64,000 nucleotides of DNA, from NCBI GenBank assembly GCA_965242965.1, contig OZ251518.1, positions 2,624,001-2,688,000 of the forward strand, given 5' to 3'. The notes beneath the pieces were generated by a model. The model searched no databases. It saw nothing but the letters and a program-made list of their open reading frames with translations, and was not told where the DNA came from. The position numbers were made by a program, and so were the translations under genes. Numbering within the stretch: position 1 is the stretch's first letter; the number at the start of each line of letters is the position of its first letter. Positions 51,031 to 60,318 of the stretch are shown one piece after another. The DNA is from Candidatus Poribacteria bacterium (GTDB lineage: Bacteria > Poribacteria > WGA-4E > WGA-3G).

Positions 51031-52047
51031 ATGCTTGCCAACATGACCAGGGTTAACCGCGAACACCTCACTATTCTCCCACTTGCTGAACGCCGCCACA
51101 AAATGACAGTGGCAGATGTCTACGCGCTAGATGCGGAAACGCCGCCTTATGAAAGCGAACATCTCCGCATCGTTGCCGAAAAGATTGTGCAGGCGCGCCG
51201 CCGCGACAAACCGGTAATTTGGATGATGGGCGCGCATGTCATGCGCCGCGGCAACTCCCGTTTTATCATTGATTTGATGGAGCGCGGCGTGCTGACGCAC
51301 CTCGCCACAAACGGCGCATGCGCCATCCACGATTTTGAACTCGCACACATCGGCGCAACGCTGGAAGATGTTGAAGACTACATAAAAGACGGAAAGTTCG
51401 GCCATTGGGAGGAAACCGGCAGATATCTGAACGAGGCCATCGTTCAAGGATACCGCGATAAAATCGGGTTCGGGGAAGCGGTGGGAAGGTTAATTGAGAC
51501 AGGGGGTGGATATCAGCCTCCTGTCCCCTTTCCACATCGCGAGTTCAGCATGTTTGCGGCGGCATATCGGTTAGGCGTGCCGTTTACCGTTCACAAAGGC
51601 ATCGGGTATGACATTGCAGACCAGCACCCTGCCGCCGATTATGCCGCCATCGGTTGGACAACCGGCGAGGATTTCCTCCGTTTCGCGCACAGCATCTCGC
51701 AATTAGAGGGCGGCGTTTTCCTGAATCTAGGCTCCGCCGTGATGGGCCCGGAAGTCTATCTCAAAAGTCTCTCTATGGCGCGCAACATTGCGGCGCAGCG
51801 CGGCGAAGAGATTCGGCACTTCACCACTGCTAACTTCGACCTGATTGATTTCCCTGATTTTCAGGAAGAGGGGAAACCTACCGATGCGCACTACTACCAT
51901 CGTCCCAAGAAAACGATTCTCATCCGTACCGTCAAAGATGGCGGCGAGAGTTATCACATCTCCGGCGATTTCGCGGTGACTGTGCCGCAACTCTATCGCC
52001 AAGTCATCGCCTTTTTCACTGGAGGACAAATCCCGCGCGATGGATAG
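51031..52047 (+). CDS. Conserved hypothetical protein, probable deoxyhypusine-synthase-like fold
   Basis: GAHV; ATNGACAIHDFE; EETG; PFTVH; GGVFLNLGSAVMGPEVYLK (recalled family pattern); start uncertain (51031 or 51043). Confidence 0.55.
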   Translation: MLANMTRVNREHLTILPLAERRHKMTVADVYALDAETPPYESEHLRIVAEKIVQARRRDKPVIWMMGAHVMRRGNSRFIIDLMERGVLTHLATNGACAIHDFELAHIGATLEDVEDYIKDGKFGHWEETGRYLNEAIVQGYRDKIGFGEAVGRLIETGGGYQPPVPFPHREFSMFAAAYRLGVPFTVHKGIGYDIADQHPAADYAAIGWTTGEDFLRFAHSISQLEGGVFLNLGSAVMGPEVYLKSLSMARNIAAQRGEEIRHFTTANFDLIDFPDFQEEGKPTDAHYYHRPKKTILIRTVKDGGESYHISGDFAVTVPQLYRQVIAFFTGGQIPRDG

Positions 52048-52328
52048 GCGGAAACACCTGTCATATCGTAGGGCGCGGGCCTGTCCCGCGCCATGCTAGG
52101 AGGAAATCGCCACGCGAAACGTAGGGCGCGGGCCTGTCCCTCGCCATGCCCGGGGCCATCAAATGTCACATCGTAGGGCGCGGGTCCTCGCATGCCACAC
52201 GCGCATGTGAGCGGGTTTCCCGCGCCATCTCTGTAGTTTGAGCTCGCCTGATCTCAAACAAGAAAGGAGACCGTTATCCATTTTCACCGTTGATAGCAAA
52301 ACCGAAAACTAAATATCTCTAAAAAACG

Positions 52329-52458
52329 TTGACAAAAAATGCGAATTTTGCTAAAATAAAATGAGTTTCAACCGTTTTGGCGATTTTTCGTAGGAATTTA
52401 AGACTTTTCACGATTTTCTTGCAAAAAAACTTGACAAAAAACTGCCATTCGCTAAAAT
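52329..52458 (+). promoter_or_regulatory. Two tandem sigma70-like promoters
   Basis: TTGACA-17-TAAAAT (52329-52357) and TTGACA-16-TAAAAT (52431-52458). Confidence 0.7.
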
Positions 52459-52687
52459 AGCATCAGTAGTCTCTTTTGGCCAAGTACCAGAAAGAAAAAT
52501 AACTTCGTGTTGGGTTCTGTCCGCTTTCGCGGCTCGGGCGCATAAAAACGTTTGCGGGAGGCACTGCACCGGCAACCTCCCGCCGTAAACCCCAGACGCA
52601 ATGTCTGGTAACGCAATGCAATAATTGTCTGAATCAAGAGGGACAAACGCTGATTCAGACAGACGAAACATAAGGAGATTCAATACA

Positions 52688-53476
52688 ATGAACAAAAAGG
52701 TTTTAACCTTCACATTACTGCTCGGCGTTTGCTGCGTTTTGGCAACCAGCCTCGCAGCAGCACCGCGCGATACCGTGCAGATCACGTCCGCGCAGGTAAC
52801 CCCCGCGGCTGTCGGCGAACAAATAGTTTTCAACGTGGACATCGTCAGCGAGCAGCCCATCGATGCCTATCAGTTCACGCTGGCGTTCGATCCGACGGCA
52901 CTGCGCTACGTCACAAGCACCAACGGCGATTATCTGACAGACGCGTTCGTGGCACCAACGCAAGTCAAGGCAAATCAGGTGACGTTGGTGGCGGTGTCGC
53001 TGTCAGGCGGCAACACAGGGGAAGGCTCACTTGCCGCTATCACGTTTGAGGTGCTGTCACAGCACGCATCGCCGCTGACGTTGTCCGAGGTGTTGCTACC
53101 GGTGACAACAGGCGGCCTTGCCGAACTGCAGGTGATTCGCAGCACCACGAGTACAGCACTTTCAGATGCCAGGCAGACGGTGCAAGAAACCACCATGTTG
53201 CCGAACTATCCGAACCCGTTCAATCCAGAGACATGGATTCCTTACCACCTCGCAGAGCCGGCCGAGGTGACGCTGCGCATCTATTCGATGCAAGGGGCAC
53301 TCGTGCGGGAATTGGCATTAGGGTATCAGGCAGCGGGTGCCTATCAACACCGTTCTCGCGCCGCGTATTGGGATGGGAAAAACGCGCTCGGTGAGACGGT
53401 GGCAAGCGGTGTCTATTTCTATACGTTCACCGCCGGCGATTTTTCGGCAACCGGCAAGATGGTCATCATGAAATAG
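52688..53476 (+). CDS. Secreted cohesin-domain protein with C-terminal T9SS-A/FlgD-like domain
   Basis: Signal peptide; 'AYQFTLAFDPTALRYV...GEGSLAAITFEV...LTLSEV' cohesin pattern; 'PNYPNPFNPETWIPY...VASGVYFY...GKMVIMK'. Confidence 0.8.
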   Translation: MNKKVLTFTLLLGVCCVLATSLAAAPRDTVQITSAQVTPAAVGEQIVFNVDIVSEQPIDAYQFTLAFDPTALRYVTSTNGDYLTDAFVAPTQVKANQVTLVAVSLSGGNTGEGSLAAITFEVLSQHASPLTLSEVLLPVTTGGLAELQVIRSTTSTALSDARQTVQETTMLPNYPNPFNPETWIPYHLAEPAEVTLRIYSMQGALVRELALGYQAAGAYQHRSRAAYWDGKNALGETVASGVYFYTFTAGDFSATGKMVIMK

Positions 53477-53597
53477 CCGGTGTCTTCATTATGCACCGGA
53501 CACCCCGGCCATCGCGGGGGACAGGCCCCCGCGCTACGCGAAGGTCGGCAGCTTACGGGGGACAGCCCCCACAGTTTAAAATAAAGGAGAATCTTGA

Positions 53598-56465
53598 ATG
53601 AAAAGCCGAACAAGTCTTTTCTGTTTTTTAACCATTATCCTGTGCCTCGGCATGACAGCAATGAGTTACGGACAAGCGGAGAGCACCGAGAACGGCCAGG
53701 CCGACAAAAGCAGCGGTCCCGTCTGGGATGTGAACCAGGATGGGCAAGTCGATGTCAGCGACCTGGCACTTGTAGCGCGAAGTATTGATACGCCTTCGTC
53801 TGCAAATCCGCGCGCAGATGTCAATGGTGATGGGCAAGTCAATGCCCGCGACCTGGAGCTCCTGGCACAACACCTCGGCGAGTCAACTGACACCGTCTCG
53901 CCACCTGCCAAGGTCACACTACCGCAGCGAATCGCAGGCATGGTGCTCATCCCCGCGGGACAGTTCCAAATGGGCAGCGACGACGCGGAAGCACAAAACG
54001 ACGAACAGCCCGTCCATACCGTTCAGGTAGACGCGTTCTATATGGATGCCTATGAAGTCACCAATGCGCAATTCAAGGCATTTGTCGACGCAAATCCAAA
54101 CTGGCAAAAAGACCGGATTGCGAACCGTTTCCACAACGGCAACTACCTCAAATCGTGGAATGGCAATAACTACCCCTCCGGGACAGCGCATTATCCCGTC
54201 ACGCATGTGAGTTGGTATGCCGCCATGGCGTATGCGGAATGGGCTGGCAAACGGCTGCCTACCGAGGCGGAATGGGAATATGCCGCACGCGGCGGCGTTG
54301 CGGACATGAAATACCCCTGGGGCGATACCATTACCAATCGCGAAGCCAACTACGATAGCAATGCCGGCGGCACAAGAGCGGTTGGACGCTATGCAGCGAA
54401 CGGCTATGGACTCCACGACATGGCAGGCAATGTCTGGGAATGGTGCCTGGACGAATACGGTAACATTTTCACCGAATCGCCGCGCGAGAATCCTATCGTT
54501 GGCGGGCAGACGCTCCAAGAGTTATCTGATAACTTCGCAAGTATCCCGGCTAATAGTCAGCGCGTGTTGCGGGGTGGCAGTTGGCTCAATCCAGCGCGGT
54601 CCTTGCGTGTCTCTGCGCGCTCCAAGTCTACACCGAGGATCACATACGATGACCTCGGTTTTCGTTGCGCGACAGCTGTGACTGACATCGGCGGGTTGAC
54701 TGACATCGGCACCGTCACGCCACCTGTCAGCACCGACGAATCGACGGATACCGGCACCGTCAAGCCACCTACGAGCGTTGACGAGTCGACGGATACTGGC
54801 ACCGTCACGCCACCTACTAAAGGCACACCGCCGCCAGTCGGAGACATGGTGCGCATCCCCGCGGGACAGTTCCAAATGGGCAGCGATGAACAGGCCCGTA
54901 CCGTCCGCGTAAACGAGTTTTACATGGACGCATACGAAGTCACTAACGCGCAATTCAAGGCCTTTGTCGACGCAAATCCAAACTGGCAAAAAGACAAGAT
55001 TGCGAACCGTTTCCACAACGGTGACTATCTCAAGTCGTGGAATGACAATAACTATCCCTCCGGGACAGCGAATCATCCTGTCACGTATGTGAGTTGGCAT
55101 GCCGCCATGGCATATGCGGAATGGGCTGGCAAACGGCTGCCTACTGAGGCAGAATGGGAATATGCCGCACGCGGTGGTGCTGCAAGCATGAACTATCCCT
55201 GGGGCAATAACATTTCCAATCGACAGGCCAACTACCAGAATAATGTCGGCGGCACAACAGCGGTTGGACGTTATGCAGCGAACGGCTATGGGCTCCATGA
55301 CATGGCAGGCAATGTCTGGGAATGGTGCCTGGACGAATACGGGGCAGATGCGCGGGCGATTGGCTTGCGTGTGTTGCGGGGTGGAGGTTGGCTCGCTTCA
55401 GCACCGTATCTGCGTGTCGATGCTCGCACCGGTGCTGTGCCAGCGGGCGCGAGCAGTGACATCGGTTTTCGTTGTGCGAGGGGTGAGACTGACATCAGCA
55501 CCGTCACGCCGCCTATCAGCATCGACGAGCCAATGGATACTGGCACCGTCACGCCGCCTATCAGCGTTGACGAGCCAACTGATACCGGCACCGTCACGCC
55601 GCCTATTAGCGTCGATGAACCGACGGATACTGGCACCGTCACGCCACCTGTCAGCACCGACGAACCGATGGATACCGGCACCGTCACGCCGCCTATCAGC
55701 ACCGACGAACCGACGGATACCGGCACCGTCACGCCACCTGTCAGCGTTGACGAGTCAACGGATACTGACACCGTCACGCCGCCTACCAAAGTCACGCCAC
55801 CGCCATTCGGAGACATGATGCTCATCCCTGCCGGACAATTCCAAATGGGCAGCGATGAACAGGCCCGTACCGTTCAGGTAGACGCGTTCTACATGGACAC
55901 CTACGAGGTCACCAATGCGCAATTCAAGGCATTTGTCGACGCAAATCCAAACTGGCAAAAAGAACGGATTGCGAGGCGTTTCCACAACGGCAACTACCTC
56001 AGGCATTGGAATGGCAATAACTATCCCTCTGGGGCAGCGAATCATCCTGTCACGTATGTGAGTTGGCATGCCGCCATGGCGTATGCGGAATGGGCTGGCA
56101 AACGGCTGCCTACCGAGACAGAATGGGAATATGCCGCACGCGGTGGTGCTGCAGGCATGAACTATCCCTGGGGCGATGCCATTACCAACCGACAGGCCAA
56201 CTACAATAACAATGTCGGCGGCACAACAGCGGTTGGACGTTATGCAGCGAACGGCTATGGGCTCCATGACATGGCAGGCAACGTCTGGGAATGGTGCATG
56301 GACGAATACGGTCCAAGTATCCCTGCTAATGGCCCGCGCGTGTTGCGGGGCGGCGGTTGGCGCAATTCAGCGGAGTCTCTGGGTGTCGCTGTGCGCTCTA
56401 GGGCTGCGCCGGCGATCACATACGATGACCTCGGTTTCCGTTGTGTGAGGGATGTTACGCCGTGA
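53598..56465 (+). CDS. Secreted dockerin + 3x FGE-sulfatase (SUMF1/CLec-fold) domain protein
   Basis: Signal peptide; DVNQDGQVDVSDL/DVNGDGQVNARDL; three copies of IPAGQFQMGS...RLPTEAEWEYAARGG...GLHDMAGNVWEWC...GFRC. Confidence 0.9.
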   Translation: MKSRTSLFCFLTIILCLGMTAMSYGQAESTENGQADKSSGPVWDVNQDGQVDVSDLALVARSIDTPSSANPRADVNGDGQVNARDLELLAQHLGESTDTVSPPAKVTLPQRIAGMVLIPAGQFQMGSDDAEAQNDEQPVHTVQVDAFYMDAYEVTNAQFKAFVDANPNWQKDRIANRFHNGNYLKSWNGNNYPSGTAHYPVTHVSWYAAMAYAEWAGKRLPTEAEWEYAARGGVADMKYPWGDTITNREANYDSNAGGTRAVGRYAANGYGLHDMAGNVWEWCLDEYGNIFTESPRENPIVGGQTLQELSDNFASIPANSQRVLRGGSWLNPARSLRVSARSKSTPRITYDDLGFRCATAVTDIGGLTDIGTVTPPVSTDESTDTGTVKPPTSVDESTDTGTVTPPTKGTPPPVGDMVRIPAGQFQMGSDEQARTVRVNEFYMDAYEVTNAQFKAFVDANPNWQKDKIANRFHNGDYLKSWNDNNYPSGTANHPVTYVSWHAAMAYAEWAGKRLPTEAEWEYAARGGAASMNYPWGNNISNRQANYQNNVGGTTAVGRYAANGYGLHDMAGNVWEWCLDEYGADARAIGLRVLRGGGWLASAPYLRVDARTGAVPAGASSDIGFRCARGETDISTVTPPISIDEPMDTGTVTPPISVDEPTDTGTVTPPISVDEPTDTGTVTPPVSTDEPMDTGTVTPPISTDEPTDTGTVTPPVSVDESTDTDTVTPPTKVTPPPFGDMMLIPAGQFQMGSDEQARTVQVDAFYMDTYEVTNAQFKAFVDANPNWQKERIARRFHNGNYLRHWNGNNYPSGAANHPVTYVSWHAAMAYAEWAGKRLPTETEWEYAARGGAAGMNYPWGDAITNRQANYNNNVGGTTAVGRYAANGYGLHDMAGNVWEWCMDEYGPSIPANGPRVLRGGGWRNSAESLGVAVRSRAAPAITYDDLGFRCVRDVTP
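54699..54815 (+). repeat. 45-bp coding tandem repeat, linker 1 (~2.5 units)
   Basis: TD(I/T)GTV(T/K)PP.S.DES units. Confidence 0.85.
55488..55787 (+). repeat. 45-bp coding tandem repeat, linker 2 (~6.5 units)
   Basis: (T/M)DTGTVTPP(I/V)S(V/T)DEP units. Confidence 0.9.
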
Positions 56466-56494: not shown

Positions 56495-56968
56495 ATCGCG
56501 GGGGAAACCCGCTCGGATGCGCGGATGGCATCCGAGGGCCCACGCGCTACTGTAATCTGTAGTTTGCGATCGCCTGATCGCAAACGGCCGCGCGACTCAG
56601 CACGGCCCGTTTTACCGTAGGGCGAGGGCCTGTCCCTCGCCATCCTTCATGAATCGAGAGATCGCGGGGGACAGGCCCCCGCGCTACGGGCCAGGAAGAA
56701 AAAATGCGCGGGGGACAGACCCCCGCGCTACGATGAAAAAACGTATCTTAGGTCCGTAGGACCTTAATGTCTATAGCACGCGCACCCGCCAAGAACGCTA
56801 AGGGCCTTTAGGTCCTTAATAGTTTTTGACGTGCGGCGCGTGTTTTATTAAGGTCCTAAAGGACCTTGACATCGTGCCTCCACGTATTTCTATAGACATG
56901 TAGGTCCTAAAGGACCTAAAGACATAACTTGACGATGGACGATCGCGGGGGACAGGCCCCCGCGCTAC
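56495..56968. repeat. REP cluster including copy 2 of the ~175-bp palindromic element (56748-56922)
   Basis: A, E, A-with-insert hairpins between convergent genes. Confidence 0.85.
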
Positions 56969-56982
56969 GGTACTGAGAACGG

Positions 56983-59900
56983 CTATTTTTGCCGTTTCAC
57001 CTCACCGAATGTCGTCAACATCCGATTTGACGCAGAAACAGGACCCGGCAACAACCGCGTCACTAACGTCTCCCGTTTCCCATCAAATGCAACTTCCTCG
57101 ATCTGATAGTAATACTCAATCCCCGGCTTCGCAGACGTATCCGTAAACGTGTAAGTTTGACGTTCACCGGTAGTGCCGGCACCGGCGATGAGCGCAGGAT
57201 TCAAGAGCGTGAAACCACTCGCGCGCTTTTCACTGCGGCGCAAGTTGAAGCCCGCGTTGTCTACCTCCGATTCGGTTGTCCATGTCAAGACGACAGCACC
57301 TGCCTCGGTGCGCGTCATAGCGAAACTGGATAACTCTACCGGTAATGCACCGCCTTCACGATGCCCCGGTGTCCCGATGTCATCAGCATGGCCGTAGTGG
57401 AGAGACTCATCAAACGGCTTGATGCGCGCCGCGAGAACCCAACTCGCACGCTTTCGTCCCGGCAGCGCAACACCTTTATCGTAACGCCGAATGACAGAAC
57501 TCCGCGAACCTTCCTCAAAACTCAACGGTAATGCCCAGGCCGGCGCATCGTCCGAACGCCGATCGCTGTCCCTGTTACCGACTTCGTCGACAAGATTCCC
57601 GTTCCTATCGGAGAGTTGCAGGTAGAACCCCTCGGTACTTAAGAACGTATCCCGCGCACGCTTGATGCGCAGATTCTTATCATGCAGTGCCAACAGATCG
57701 TAAACTCTATCCGCCGGCAGATACGAATCTGACGACGCACGCGCCGGACCCGCCACGATGAGCAACGTTTGATTCGGTTGAATCACTTTTTCGCCGAGCG
57801 TCAACGTGACAATCGGGCGGCCGACTAAATCCTCGGAATCGACATTCTGGATCTCCAACTTCCAGCGGCTGAGATTAATGGCATCCGTTTTGGAATTGTT
57901 ATAGAGTTCGATCCATTGCGGCAGTGTGCCACCGGCGGAATCAAACATGATTTCGCTGAGCGTGACGCTCCCTTTCGGCGTGGCGGCTTCCGTTTTCACG
58001 GCACCATTCGGATAGCCCGGTGTGCCGGAAGTGGCAGGAGACTCCGAGACCTTCCTATCATAACCGATACCGGTGAATGCCGATTCTGCCCAGGCATCCT
58101 TGTGGTATCCCACAATGTCCGCCTTGGCGCGCTGCCAGACTTTGCCTGAGCCGAGTGCATCTTCGGTGTCACCACCGGGTGCCTGCAACACTTGCAAGGG
58201 CCAGACATGTGTATCATAATCGCCTGTCTGTTCACGGACAAATGCATCGGTGTCACTGCCGCCGCCACCGGCGACATCCACGAACGCCTCGTTCAGACCG
58301 AGTTTCTCCGTGGCATTCCGGAGAATCAATAGGAATTTTCCATCGTCCGGTAACGAAAGCCCCGAATTGACAAGATACAAGTGCGGTGAGCCTTTCTTCT
58401 CCACATCAGAAGTTGCTATGTCATCGCCCGCGGCGAGAGGTGTCTTATCCGGCGCGCTGTTCACGATAAGCAAGAGCCCATTTGCCGGCACACTTGCATC
58501 GGGGAAGACGATGAGCGACGTATCTTCCTTCTTGCCATCCTGCACAACGCTGAGTTCCCAGTCCTTTAACGAAACTGCCGAACCCGTGACATTGCGGAGT
58601 TCCAACCAATCATCAGCATCGCCACTGCCATTGCCGAGTTCGTTGAAGACAACGGGACTGCGCGGCACATCAGAGGCGGCAGCCTTCGGTTCTTCCACCT
58701 CGAAAATCGGGTAGACCTGGATAAGTGTATCCACAGCCGGCGGAGAAGACTCCTTTGCGTCAGGAAACGGAGCCTCTGTCTCTTCCTGCCGCGGTAATGC
58801 CTGCACCTGTTCTGTCGGCGCGACCGGCGGCGGTGCCGTCCCTGCTATCTCGTTGCCATCACCATCTCTCACCGATGTCCCCCGCGGCACCGCCACGCCA
58901 CTTGAGTCAAGTTGCACGGACGTTGCAACGTCACCCGCTTGGATAGGATACGCAAACGTCACCGTCGTGGAGCCGGAACGTTCACTGCCCGGTTGCCACG
59001 TCGCGTGCCGCGCATTCGCCACACTCCTTTCCCCAAGATAGAGGACGACATACGGCGGATTGTCACCTTCGTAGTGGACACCTTCTTCATCAAATGTCAC
59101 CGTCACCTCAATTTCATCGCCAACGTTGTAAATCTCATTGGGGGGGTTCGGCACGAAGGCGGGTGGCTCAATGACGACAGGGGGCCGCAAGTCCGCCACC
59201 GTGACGGTCAAGGTATTCGATTCAAAGTTGGGGTTCCCCGCGATGTCCGATGTGGCACCTTCAAGCAAACGAATTTGCACTTCACCGCCATTGAAACTCG
59301 CATCCGGCGTGACGGTGACACGATAAGCCGCTGCGGTGGGAATGGCGAAGCGGAGGTAGTCCCCAGACTTGACATGCACTAATCCGATGAATTCCACCTC
59401 GCCCAGCAAACTTTGCAACGAGTTCCCCGCCGCATCCGTGATAGTGATGTCACCGCTTGAGAACCCCGGCACTTCGTCTGGGAAATTTTCTGTCTGCGTC
59501 ACTTCGTTCGCCTTGCCGCGATTATAGGTCCAAGGGGTGATATTCAGGAAACTGAACACCACGTCAAAAGCCTCCGTCGCGATGCCCGTATCCTCCGCCC
59601 ACCTGTCAATCAGCACTGCCGGCCGCACAGCATCCACCGATTGTTCCCAACCGGCGCGGTAATGCAGGAAATAACCCGAGTGAGCATAAGTGAAATCCTC
59701 CCCAGAAGAAACACTTGTAATCACAGATCGATCTGTATCAAAGGGAAACCGGATTAACGTGCCACCACCAAAATTCCGGTCGCCCGGTTGCACCTCATAC
59801 GCAAAGGTGAGCACTGTCGGCGTTTTATCTTCATCCGTGCCTTCTTTGTTGTCGGCAAGCGGCGCGTAAAACAGAGCTCCATCCCAGTCAAACTCCAATT

Positions 59901-60318
59901 TGATGCTTCTATCTGTCACGCGCACCGGTTCGGTAAATGCCATATCGATCGTGATGATATCGCCGGCTTTATAGAGACCCAAGGTCTGCCGTTCGCGCCG
60001 ATAGCCGGTCGTCACCTCAAAATCATTGGAACCGAGCAGATACGCCAATTCAACGGGATTTTCGAGGGCATAGCAACTCACCAGGTCTAGATAAGTTGCT
60101 CCGCTGTCGCGCCAGGGGACAAAACAATTCTGGTAACTCCACGCATAGAGCGACTCCGCAGTTTGGGATGCGGGTGGCTTACTCGTCACGCGGAACGCGT
60201 CAGCGGTAACTCTAAGTGGTGTCTGCGCGTTCGCCGGGATTCCGAGCATGGCCACGGTGCTGCAAAGCAGCCATAAAATGAAAACGGGGGATAAGGAAAA
60301 AAGAGATTTCCTTTGCAT
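56983..60318 (-). CDS. Large secreted protein with Ig-like and two lamin-tail (LTD) domains
   Basis: Signal peptide; VVFNEL..DWLELRN; LSEIMF..QWIELYN; GTPG; LPVELSSF..WTTESEVDNAGFNL; AGGAGG RBS. Confidence 0.8.
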   Translation of the reverse strand: MQRKSLFSLSPVFILWLLCSTVAMLGIPANAQTPLRVTADAFRVTSKPPASQTAESLYAWSYQNCFVPWRDSGATYLDLVSCYALENPVELAYLLGSNDFEVTTGYRRERQTLGLYKAGDIITIDMAFTEPVRVTDRSIKLEFDWDGALFYAPLADNKEGTDEDKTPTVLTFAYEVQPGDRNFGGGTLIRFPFDTDRSVITSVSSGEDFTYAHSGYFLHYRAGWEQSVDAVRPAVLIDRWAEDTGIATEAFDVVFSFLNITPWTYNRGKANEVTQTENFPDEVPGFSSGDITITDAAGNSLQSLLGEVEFIGLVHVKSGDYLRFAIPTAAAYRVTVTPDASFNGGEVQIRLLEGATSDIAGNPNFESNTLTVTVADLRPPVVIEPPAFVPNPPNEIYNVGDEIEVTVTFDEEGVHYEGDNPPYVVLYLGERSVANARHATWQPGSERSGSTTVTFAYPIQAGDVATSVQLDSSGVAVPRGTSVRDGDGNEIAGTAPPPVAPTEQVQALPRQEETEAPFPDAKESSPPAVDTLIQVYPIFEVEEPKAAASDVPRSPVVFNELGNGSGDADDWLELRNVTGSAVSLKDWELSVVQDGKKEDTSLIVFPDASVPANGLLLIVNSAPDKTPLAAGDDIATSDVEKKGSPHLYLVNSGLSLPDDGKFLLILRNATEKLGLNEAFVDVAGGGGSDTDAFVREQTGDYDTHVWPLQVLQAPGGDTEDALGSGKVWQRAKADIVGYHKDAWAESAFTGIGYDRKVSESPATSGTPGYPNGAVKTEAATPKGSVTLSEIMFDSAGGTLPQWIELYNNSKTDAINLSRWKLEIQNVDSEDLVGRPIVTLTLGEKVIQPNQTLLIVAGPARASSDSYLPADRVYDLLALHDKNLRIKRARDTFLSTEGFYLQLSDRNGNLVDEVGNRDSDRRSDDAPAWALPLSFEEGSRSSVIRRYDKGVALPGRKRASWVLAARIKPFDESLHYGHADDIGTPGHREGGALPVELSSFAMTRTEAGAVVLTWTTESEVDNAGFNLRRSEKRASGFTLLNPALIAGAGTTGERQTYTFTDTSAKPGIEYYYQIEEVAFDGKRETLVTRLLPGPVSASNRMLTTFGEVKRQK

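What the first reader, a model, noticed from the sequence alone, without database searches (positions are those of the whole stretch)
52688..56465. Cohesin-dockerin gene pair: possible cellulosome-like display system for lectin-fold binding domains
Seen: two adjacent co-oriented secreted genes behind tandem promoters. Gene 1 is only signal peptide + cohesin-like domain + C-terminal T9SS-A/FlgD-like domain. Gene 2 is signal peptide + two-loop dockerin (53724-53882) + three FGE-sulfatase domains on Pro/Thr linkers, and has no such C-terminal domain. Known: cohesin-dockerin pairs assemble cellulosomes, and FGE-sulfatase domains adopt the C-type-lectin fold. All three copies lack the paired catalytic Cys motif of true FGE before the final GFRC. 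Inference: gene 1 is a minimal exported adaptor that captures gene 2, giving a non-cellulolytic modular adhesin or recognition complex, possibly for host or phage interaction in a probable sponge symbiont.
Basis: partly seen in the sequence, partly recalled or inferred. Interest (0 to 1): 0.82.

Follow-up and report, generated by a model that had tools for sequence, protein, structure and literature searches.

The report
Poribacterial cohesin anchor with dockerin lectin cargo
Two neighbouring genes of a sponge-associated bacterium (Poribacteria) encode a small surface-sorted protein with a cohesin module and a large secreted protein with the matching dockerin module plus three non-enzymatic lectin-like domains, and because this gene pairing recurs in related genera it is probably a surface-display system, although binding has not been shown.

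Summary
Gene 1 (52688-53476) is signal peptide + cohesin + the lineage's T9SS-type C-terminal sorting domain (CTD). Gene 2 (53598-56465) is signal peptide + dockerin + three FGE-sulfatase-fold domains, with no catalytic Cys pair and no CTD.

The pairing is not chance. All 8 small cohesin-CTD genes found in 6 genomes of 3 genera lie next to, or one gene from, a dockerin-FGE gene. The usual form is a three-gene cassette: lipoprotein-cohesin, cohesin-CTD, cohesin-dockerin-FGE.

The window pair is a derived extra copy found only in this genome. Its cargo lost its own cohesin by a clean deletion and tripled the FGE domain.

Two results complicate the simple cellulosome reading:
- In two further genera the small CTD gene beside dockerin-FGE genes has no cohesin.
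- 25 of this genome's 44 CTD proteins carry a dockerin directly before the CTD.

Binding remains untested; the one complex prediction gave no verdict. There is no reverse transcriptase, so this is not a DGR target. T9SS machinery is only partly detectable.

I found no description of this in Poribacteria papers. A CTD-anchored cohesin scaffoldin has been inferred in Cloacimonadota. I rate it a new variant of a known kind.

The parts
52329..52357 (+). Promoter-like site 1: TTGACA, 17 nt, TAAAAT, with TG before the -10 hexamer
   Evidence: 11 of 12 consensus matches. The surrounding DNA (window 52326-52467) is also found upstream of the gene 1 homologues in G001 and G002.
52431..52458 (+). Promoter-like site 2: TTGACA, 16 nt, TAAAAT
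   Evidence: 11 of 12 consensus matches.
52688..53476 (+). Gene 1, 262 aa: signal peptide, cohesin, T9SS-type CTD. An AAGGAG ribosome-binding site lies 9 nt upstream of the ATG.
   Evidence: ORF, translation and upstream sequence. dN/dS is 0.16-0.28 against its paralogue and orthologues.
52796..53080 (+). Cohesin module (Pfam match, residues 37-131; the folded domain spans about residues 25-150)
   Evidence: PF00963, E 5e-9. The fold matches solved cohesins.
53207..53467 (+). C-terminal sorting domain, T9SS type-A-like / FlgD_ig (residues 174-260)
   Evidence: TIGR04183, 33.5 bits against a cut-off of 23. It is 62-78% identical to the C-termini of many proteins in all 61 related genomes searched.
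53503..53538 (.). REP-like palindromic hairpin in the 121-nt gap between the genes, with no T-run after it
53598..56465 (+). Gene 2, 955 aa: signal peptide, dockerin, three FGE-like domains on Pro/Thr linkers, no CTD. An AAAGGAG ribosome-binding site lies 6 nt upstream of the ATG.
53727..53876 (+). Dockerin with two 12-residue Ca-loop motifs (DVNQDGQVDVSD and DVNGDGQVNARD), each followed by a helix
   Evidence: PF00404, E 4e-13. The loop Asp residues are invariant in a 57-sequence alignment.
53934..54671 (+). FGE-sulfatase-fold domain 1, no catalytic Cys pair
54707..54817 (+). Linker 1: 45-nt tandem repeat, 2.5 copies, encoding Pro/Thr/Asp-rich 15-residue units
54840..55481 (+). FGE-sulfatase-fold domain 2, no catalytic Cys pair
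55498..55785 (+). Linker 2: 45-nt tandem repeat, 6.4 copies
55812..56450 (+). FGE-sulfatase-fold domain 3, no catalytic Cys pair

Best explanation
The pair is an anchor-and-cargo module of the poribacterial cell envelope.

Proposed mechanism:
1. Both proteins are exported by Sec.
2. Gene 1 is routed to the outer membrane or cell surface by its C-terminal sorting domain, the same domain that ends about 44 proteins in this genome.
3. Gene 1's single cohesin captures the N-terminal dockerin of gene 2 in a calcium-dependent way.
4. Gene 2 has no sorting domain of its own. Binding tethers its three non-catalytic, C-type-lectin-fold (FGE-like) domains, spaced by extended Pro/Thr repeats, at the cell surface as ligand-binding heads.

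Origin: the locus is a recent, reduced copy of a conserved cassette (lipoprotein-cohesin, cohesin-CTD, cohesin-dockerin-FGE). Here the cargo lost its own cohesin and tripled its binding domain.

Shown here: the domain identities, the missing catalytic residues, the conserved gene linkage, purifying selection on gene 1, and the origin by cohesin deletion.

Inferred only: the binding itself, the location, the secretion route, and that the FGE-like domains bind a ligand.
For: Domain identities.

Linkage of cohesin-CTD genes to dockerin-FGE genes:
- 8 small cohesin-CTD genes were found: G000 x2, G001, G002, G024, G006, G007 x2, in 3 genera.
- All 8 have a dockerin-bearing FGE gene downstream on the same strand.
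- 6 are directly adjacent. 2 are separated only by a lipoprotein-cohesin gene.

Linkage in other genera:
- In G009, 4 of 5 dockerin-FGEx3 genes (925-966 aa, the architecture of gene 2) follow directly after a small CTD gene.
- In G004 the same pairing occurs repeatedly.

Chance expectation: a rough estimate of my own for G000 (34 FGE ORFs, 44 CTD ORFs, 2.5 kb upstream on the same strand, 5.7 Mb) gives about 0.3 such pairs. Three are seen.

Gene 2 derives from a cohesin-dockerin-FGE gene:
- Its dockerin is closest to dockerins of cohesin-dockerin-FGE proteins, at 52-66% identity against 48% or less for the other dockerins aligned.
- DNA matches to G002 cover the signal-peptide part and the dockerin-FGE part but skip a 362-nt cohesin-coding stretch.

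Gene 1 is under purifying selection: dN/dS 0.23-0.34 in the cohesin and 0.06-0.15 in the CTD.

Catalysis is unlikely: none of the 37 FGE-like domain hits in G000 that reach the loop has the Cys pair.

Variable loop: the loop before GFRC is among the most variable stretches across 37 paralogous domains. I recall, from no call, that this corresponds to the diversified region of the solved FGE-fold protein TvpA. TvpA itself is matched at E 9e-19.

A sorting route is plausible: a Peptidase_C25 (PorU-like) protein with its own CTD lies next to a PorV-like gene.
Against: - No binding evidence exists.
- In genera g3 and g4 the small CTD partner has no cohesin, only a signal peptide, a short helical motif and the CTD. 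The pairing therefore does not depend on cohesin.
- The genome holds 51 dockerin ORFs against 13 cohesin ORFs. 25 of its 44 CTD proteins carry a dockerin just before the CTD, and 9 of the 13 cohesins are followed by a dockerin in the same chain. Partners may therefore be promiscuous or intramolecular.
- Some cohesin-dockerin-FGE genes have no CTD gene nearby (G000 587499, G002 L126).
- The cassette was seen in only 8 of the 30 best-hit loci from the 61 genomes searched, all in one family.
- T9SS core parts are weak or not found. SprA_N scores 25.1 against 27, PorV 23.3 against 27, and GldL and GldM were not found, though those two searches had silent controls.
Confidence: 0.5

Rival explanations
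1. General cohesin-dockerin network. Gene 1 is one of several generic cohesin anchors, and gene 2 is one of about 50 dockerin proteins. Partners are promiscuous across the envelope. Adjacency reflects co-regulation and shared ancestry rather than a dedicated one-to-one pair.
For: - 13 cohesin ORFs against 51 dockerin ORFs in G000.
- Cohesin-dockerin-CTD cassettes occur on WD40, LRR and LDL-receptor-repeat proteins in public data.
- Cohesin homologues were found in 112 of 121 sampled genomes of the phylum.
Against: - Gene 2's dockerin belongs to a distinct subclass (WDVNQDG ... NPR insertion) shared in the alignment only with dockerins fused behind a cohesin, most of them in cohesin-dockerin-FGE proteins. 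It is unlike the dockerin-CTD class.
- The linkage is tight and conserved across genera.
Confidence: 0.2
2. Sorting domain supplied in trans, independent of cohesin. Because the FGE-like domain always ends the protein, the usual cargo-dockerin-helix-CTD cassette is split. A small CTD protein is encoded upstream, and the dockerin contacts the pre-CTD helix or another part of it. The cohesin of gene 1 would then be an add-on with another partner, or the dockerin mainly a calcium-binding spacer.
For: - The small partner genes in G009 and G004 are only signal peptide + helix motif + CTD.
- The same helix motif lies between dockerin and CTD in most dockerin-CTD proteins of G000.
- Nearly all full-length FGE-like domains end within a few residues of the protein's C-terminus or of a linker.
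Against: - Gene 1 and its seven homologues lack the helix motif and have a cohesin instead.
- Cohesin is the known dockerin receptor.
- No helix-dockerin contact has been tested.
Confidence: 0.17
3. Gene 2 is an enzyme (sulfatase maturation, or an EgtB/PvdO-like oxidase), and the pairing merely places it in the envelope.
For: - The best sequence relatives of domain 1 are true FGEs, at E about 1e-39 to 1e-40.
- I recall, from no call, that Poribacteria are rich in sulfatases.
Against: - Both catalytic Cys are absent from all three domains and from every informative paralogue (0 of 37), and the loop is 3 residues shorter.
- No DinB or other catalytic partner domain was found.
Confidence: 0.05
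4. Gene 2 is the variable target of a diversity-generating retroelement, as are other FGE-fold/C-type-lectin-fold proteins.
For: - TvpA (2y3c) is matched at E 9e-19.
- The three domains differ most in the loop before GFRC.
Against: No reverse transcriptase (PF00078) match in the 94.7%-complete genome, while the controls rang.
Confidence: 0.02

Closest known systems
Non-cellulosomal cohesin-dockerin modules (Clostridium perfringens GH84C cohesin 2w1n/2jh2; Archaeoglobus fulgidus cohesin 2xdh)
   Same: - These are the best structural matches of gene 1's cohesin.
- They are single cohesins in proteins unrelated to cellulose breakdown.
- Cohesin and dockerin can occur in one polypeptide. This is recalled for A. 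fulgidus, from no call.
   Different: - Here the cohesin is fused to a T9SS-type sorting domain in a diderm bacterium.
- The cargo is a non-enzymatic FGE-fold domain array.
- The two are a conserved gene pair.
Cellulosome anchoring scaffoldins of Clostridia (cohesin + cell-wall anchor, dockerin-tagged enzymes)
   Same: The logic is the same: an anchored cohesin captures a dockerin-tagged secreted protein. The Pfam families are the same, and the cohesin fold resembles 1ohz_A.
   Different: - There is one cohesin, not a multi-cohesin scaffoldin.
- There are no carbohydrate-active enzymes and no CBM.
- The anchor is a CTD, not an SLH domain or sortase signal.
- The dockerin is N-terminal to the cargo.
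Inferred cellulosome-like complex of Candidatus Stygibacter (Cloacimonadota), PMC8542988
   Same: It is a cohesin-bearing protein with a conserved C-terminal domain inferred to attach it to the cell surface, citing a T9SS review, plus dockerin-tagged secreted proteins. I read passages only.
   Different: - There it is a 3,755-aa scaffoldin with tandem cohesins and CBMs, and the cargo is hydrolases.
- Here it is a 262-aa single-cohesin adaptor genetically paired with a lectin-like cargo.
- Both are in silico inferences.
Non-catalytic FGE-sulfatase-fold proteins (PorK/GldK of the T9SS ring, 9mzu; Treponema denticola TvpA, 2y3c)
   Same: The fold family is the same and the FGE Cys pair is absent. 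Matches are at E 4e-25 and 9e-19.
   Different: - Gene 2's domains are closer in sequence to true FGEs than to PorK or TvpA.
- Gene 2 is not a lipoprotein like PorK.
- There is no DGR.

Membership tests
Cohesin (PF00963) | Sequence profile match above the curated cut-off | tested here: met
   36.9 bits against 24.1, E 5e-9, residues 37-131. 38.4 bits in the genome search.
Cohesin (PF00963) | Beta-sandwich cohesin fold | tested here: met
   AlphaFold2 model, pLDDT 85.4. The top Foldseek PDB matches are nearly all cohesins, for example 2xdh (TM 0.76, rmsd 2.6) and 1ohz_A (TM 0.73, rmsd 2.3).
Cohesin (PF00963) | Binds a dockerin | not testable with these tools
   The one complex prediction returned no verdict. 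A binding assay is needed.
Dockerin type I (PF00404) | Profile match above the cut-off, and a duplicated calcium-binding loop-helix motif | tested here: met
   49.7 bits against 22.9. Two DxNxDGxxxxxD loops are read. The loop Asp residues are invariant across 57 aligned dockerins.
T9SS type-A C-terminal sorting domain (TIGR04183) | Profile match at the extreme C-terminus | tested here: met
   TIGR04183 scores 33.5 against 23 at residues 174-260 of 262. Pfam PF18962 is below its cut-off (23.1 against 27) and FlgD_ig is above (34.8 against 27).
T9SS type-A C-terminal sorting domain (TIGR04183) | The genome encodes the T9SS machinery (SprA translocon, PorU/PorV, PorL/M motor) | tested here: inconclusive
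   - PorU-like Peptidase_C25 scores 280 bits and has a CTD, but NF033707 scores 287 against 420.
- PorV-like matches are below cut-off: 96 against 250, and 23.3 against 27.
- The SprA-like 2207-aa ORF is below cut-off.
- GldL and GldM were not found, but the controls were silent.
Formylglycine-generating enzyme (true FGE/SUMF1) | FGE-sulfatase fold | tested here: met
   PF03781 scores 625 bits over three domains. The best PDB relatives are FGEs.
Formylglycine-generating enzyme (true FGE/SUMF1) | Paired catalytic cysteines in the loop after RGGS | tested here: not met
   The loop is 3 residues shorter and has no Cys in domain 1, aligned against 6muj, 2q17 and 6s07. There is no Cys pair in domains 2 and 3. 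Gene 2 is not an FGE.
Cellulosome | Multi-cohesin scaffoldin integrating dockerin-bearing carbohydrate-active enzymes | tested here: not met
   Gene 1 has one cohesin and no CBM. Gene 2 has no glycoside-hydrolase or other CAZyme domain.
DGR variable protein (TvpA-like) | A reverse transcriptase and template repeat in the genome | tested here: not met
   No PF00078 match in G000, while the controls rang in 3 genomes. A template repeat was not searched for separately.

The most novel reading that the evidence does not exclude
Sorting domain supplied in trans. The small CTD protein (with a cohesin in some genera and only a helix motif in others) binds the dockerin of a CTD-less, already folded cargo in the periplasm. 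It then carries that cargo through a divergent T9SS-like translocon and leaves it tethered at the surface. This would be piggyback secretion and anchoring mediated by a cohesin-dockerin pair. More broadly, Poribacteria would build a surface interaction network from cohesin-dockerin-helix-CTD cassettes, displaying eukaryote-like repeat proteins and lectin-like FGE heads towards the sponge host.
Probability: 0.15. Interest if true: 0.85.

Novelty: new variant of a known kind. Interest (0 to 1): 0.6.

Why it matters
Poribacteria are uncultured, widespread sponge symbionts, and how their surface proteins are sorted and organised is unknown.

- A 2014 single-cell genomics paper noted TIGR04183 domains on poribacterial eukaryote-like proteins. 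It stated that no Por secretion genes were found and that the pathway remained to be revealed (PMC3909097, passages read).
- This locus and its relatives give a concrete, testable pair: a 140-residue cohesin and a 65-residue dockerin. They also give a rule: CTD-less dockerin-FGE cargo is encoded beside a small CTD protein.
- If binding holds, cohesin-dockerin assembly would extend to a T9SS-type envelope and to non-enzymatic, lectin-fold cargo.
- It would also point to candidate host- or matrix-recognition molecules of the symbiont.

Tried and rejected
- Complex prediction: gene 1 cohesin (31-row alignment) with gene 2 dockerin (57-row alignment) and two Ca ions. The verdict was no answer. The score was 0.71, but one unrelated control protein scored 0.79. 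This counts neither for nor against binding.
- RNA evidence: no RNA holder was listed among 5 runs, so nothing was laid and expression and co-transcription remain untested.
- DGR idea: rejected, because the genome has no RVT_1 match.
- PorV-like gene near the paralogous cassette: it lies 2 kb downstream in G000. No such gene was found by tblastn in 17 related loci or in the window, so I treat the proximity as coincidence.
- GldM and GldL searches: nothing was found, but the controls were silent, so they are uninformative.
- Genome-contig scan with the cohesin part: it gave only one locus. It was useful for naming the organism but not for synteny.
- Literature searches:
  - Poribacteria + cohesin + dockerin gave 1 irrelevant paper.
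  - The wider 5-term search listed nothing relevant to Poribacteria among the 20 papers shown, out of 878 hits.
  - Sponge + symbiont + dockerin gave 9 papers, none relevant by title and abstract start.
- Papers not held: Kamke 2013 (ISME J) and Peer 2009 could not be checked. Either may mention poribacterial or non-cellulosomal cohesin-dockerin modules.
- No supplementary files were opened.


Full report
WHAT IS THERE

Two co-oriented ORFs lie at 52688-53476 and 53598-56465. Each has a Shine-Dalgarno-like site before its ATG.

Gene 1 (262 aa):
- It begins with a signal peptide.
- It has a cohesin: PF00963, E 5e-9, above the cut-off.
- It ends in a C-terminal domain that matches FlgD_ig and the T9SS type-A sorting domain TIGR04183, 33.5 bits against 23.
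- An AlphaFold2 model of the mature protein has pLDDT 85.4. It matches solved cohesins first, led by the non-cellulosomal ones of C. perfringens and A. fulgidus, and also the classical C. thermocellum cohesin of 1ohz.

Gene 2 (955 aa):
- It has a signal peptide, then a canonical two-loop dockerin (E 4e-13), then three FGE-sulfatase-fold domains.
- The domains are joined by Pro/Thr/Asp-rich linkers encoded by 45-nt tandem repeats.
- It ends at ...GFRCVRDVTP with no sorting domain.

Catalytic residues:
- Aligned with true FGEs, the catalytic Cys-bearing loop is three residues shorter and has no Cys.
- The Cys pair is missing from all three domains. It is also missing from all 37 FGE-like domain hits in this genome that reach the loop. 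There were 41 hits in all, and 4 stop before the loop.

Promoters and intergenic gap:
- Two 11-of-12 promoter-like sites precede gene 1.
- The 121-nt gap between the genes holds REP-like hairpins without a T-run, so co-transcription is plausible. It has not been shown.

ORGANISM AND GENOMIC BACKGROUND

- A same-genus relative is titled Candidatus Poribacteria bacterium.
- The 5.7-Mb genome has 13 cohesin, 52 dockerin and at least 40 FGE-sulfatase matches.
- I ran my own census with profiles seeded from this locus, on all ORFs of 70 aa or more. It gives 13 cohesin ORFs, 51 dockerin ORFs, 44 CTD ORFs and 34 FGE ORFs.
- The dominant architecture is cargo-dockerin-CTD. 25 of the 44 CTD ORFs have a dockerin directly before the CTD, and 5 of those also have a cohesin before the dockerin.
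- 9 of the 13 cohesins are followed by a dockerin in the same chain.
- A helical motif (W..L......DGS..F..GIA.LE.LL) sits between the dockerin and the CTD in most of these proteins.
- The last 100 residues of gene 1 are 62-78% identical to the C-termini of many proteins in all 61 related genomes searched, with about 2,590 matches in total.
- Public protein data show the same cohesin-dockerin-CTD ends on WD40, LRR and LDL-receptor-repeat proteins.

THE PAIRING IS CONSERVED

- G000 has a second locus (C1:5267526-5271242). It holds an 85%-identical gene 1 paralogue, a lipoprotein with a cohesin, and a 485-aa signal peptide-cohesin-dockerin-FGE protein.
- The same three genes occur in G001, G002, G024, G006 and twice in G007.
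- Altogether, 8 of 8 small cohesin-CTD genes have a dockerin-FGE gene downstream on the same strand. 6 are adjacent and 2 are one gene away.
- In G009, 4 of 5 dockerin-FGEx3 genes of 925-966 aa, the architecture of gene 2, follow a small CTD gene. A fifth locus keeps a 79-aa CTD remnant before a cohesin-dockerin-FGE gene.
- G004 shows repeated CTD-gene/dockerin-FGE-gene alternation.
- A rough chance expectation for G000 is about 0.3 such pairs. Three are seen, counting the FGE gene at 3329281, which sits behind a cohesin-dockerin-helix-CTD gene.
- The linkage has limits. Among the best-hit loci of 30 genomes, only 8 (G000, G001, G002, G004, G006, G007, G009, G024; five genera of one family) show a cohesin/dockerin-FGE gene. 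The other 22 show stand-alone FGE genes.

HOW THE WINDOW COPY AROSE

- The flank up to window position 52010 is syntenic in G001 and G002, but gene 1 and gene 2 are not there. The window pair is therefore an extra copy specific to this genome.
- dS between gene 1 and its paralogue (0.28) is close to that against the orthologues (0.34-0.37). dN/dS is 0.16-0.28, so both copies are maintained by selection.
- DNA matches of gene 2 to the G002 cohesin-dockerin-FGE genes cover the signal-peptide part and then resume at the dockerin. They skip 362 nt of cohesin-coding DNA.
- The dockerin's nearest relatives are dockerins of cohesin-dockerin-FGE proteins.
- Gene 2 is thus a cohesin-deleted, FGE-triplicated derivative of the standard cargo.

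MECHANISM

The most economical reading is anchor and cargo. Gene 1 is sorted by its CTD, and its cohesin holds the dockerin of the CTD-less gene 2. This presents three lectin-fold heads on long linkers.

- The heads are probably binders, not enzymes.
- Their most variable full-occupancy stretch across 37 paralogous domains includes the loop before GFRC.
- There is no reverse transcriptase, so the variation comes from paralogue divergence and not from a DGR.

I give this reading a probability of 0.5. Three results keep it from being higher:
1. No binding evidence could be obtained.
2. In G009 and G004 the partner CTD protein has no cohesin by Pfam. Either the dockerin there binds something else, such as the helix motif, or the linkage serves sorting rather than cohesin capture.
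3. Dockerins are mostly built into CTD proteins themselves. This suggests a wider, possibly promiscuous or intramolecular, cohesin-dockerin network.

SORTING ROUTE

- The CTD passes the TIGR04183 cut-off, but the machinery is only partly visible.
- There are three large Peptidase_C25/PorU-like proteins with their own CTD. One is followed by a PorV-like gene.
- A 2207-aa SprA-like ORF lies below the cut-offs.
- GldL and GldM were not found, in searches whose controls were silent.
- A 2014 paper reported the CTDs on poribacterial eukaryote-like proteins and found no Por structural genes (PMC3909097, passages read).

COMPARISON WITH WHAT IS KNOWN

- The modules are ordinary members of the cohesin and dockerin families.
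- The system is not a cellulosome: it has one cohesin, no CAZymes and no CBM.
- The nearest published idea I could read is the inferred CTD-anchored, multi-cohesin scaffoldin of a Cloacimonadota genus (PMC8542988, passages read).
- My searches found no paper that links Poribacteria, or sponge symbionts, with cohesin-dockerin modules.
- Two possibly relevant papers are not held.
- Public annotations of the cargo family read only 'hypothetical protein' or 'SUMF1/EgtB/PvdO family nonheme iron enzyme'.
That agrees with the genome-wide loss of the Cys pair seen here.

VERDICT

This is a real, conserved and apparently undescribed variant of non-cellulosomal cohesin-dockerin assembly. Its binding step is untested.

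Noticed in passing
window 52067-52094, 52120-52147, 53511-53538, 56616-56643, 56661-56688, 56942-56969, and six more elsewhere in the window: A 28-nt GC-rich palindromic REP-like element (CGTAGGGCG.GGGCCTGTCCC.CGCCAT) is scattered through intergenic DNA. There are 11 copies at 3 or fewer mismatches in the window, against 0 expected. Copies flank and separate gene 1 and gene 2, and many matches occur in G001 and G002.
   Followed up: partly
window 56983-60318 (-): A 1111-aa secreted protein with two lamin-tail domains and a Big_12 domain. Its 3' half (window 56991-58690) has at least 15 copies at 76-79% DNA identity in G002 and several in G001, so it belongs to a large multi-copy gene family.
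   Followed up: no
G000:C1 genome-wide, e.g. 1526683-1529088 and 3327429-3329093: Most dockerin-CTD proteins share a conserved helical motif between the dockerin and the CTD. In G009 and G004, small 198-225-aa proteins consist only of signal peptide + this motif + CTD, and they sit beside dockerin-FGE genes.
   Followed up: partly
G000:C1:3236351-3244032; 3451181-3457804; 2333983-2340540; 92233-97245: The genome has divergent T9SS-like parts. There are three PorU-like C25 peptidases of 1670-2185 aa with their own CTD, one followed by a PorV-like gene, and a 2207-aa SprA-like ORF. A 2014 paper found no Por structural genes in poribacterial single-cell genomes.
   Followed up: partly
G000:C1:684744-685352 and 4159549-4160151: Two near-identical 200-202-aa secreted proteins carry only a half dockerin (one Ca loop + helix) at the N-terminus. 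One lies directly upstream of a dockerin-FGE gene at 685410.
   Followed up: no
G000:C1:3998450-4011249 and 1242768-1261028: There are clusters of multi-domain or tandem FGE-like genes without dockerin: proteins of 948-1280 aa with 2-3 FGE domains, and six proteins of 378-643 aa with a C-terminal FGE-like domain. The latter may be the J-like/FGE-head family noted earlier by the scan in another genome (e1-1177182).
   Followed up: no
G002:C1:1414232-1426073 (L074, L127): In G002 the cassette is expanded. One cohesin-CTD gene and one lipoprotein-cohesin gene are followed by four tandem cohesin-dockerin-FGE genes, two of them with two FGE domains.
   Followed up: partly
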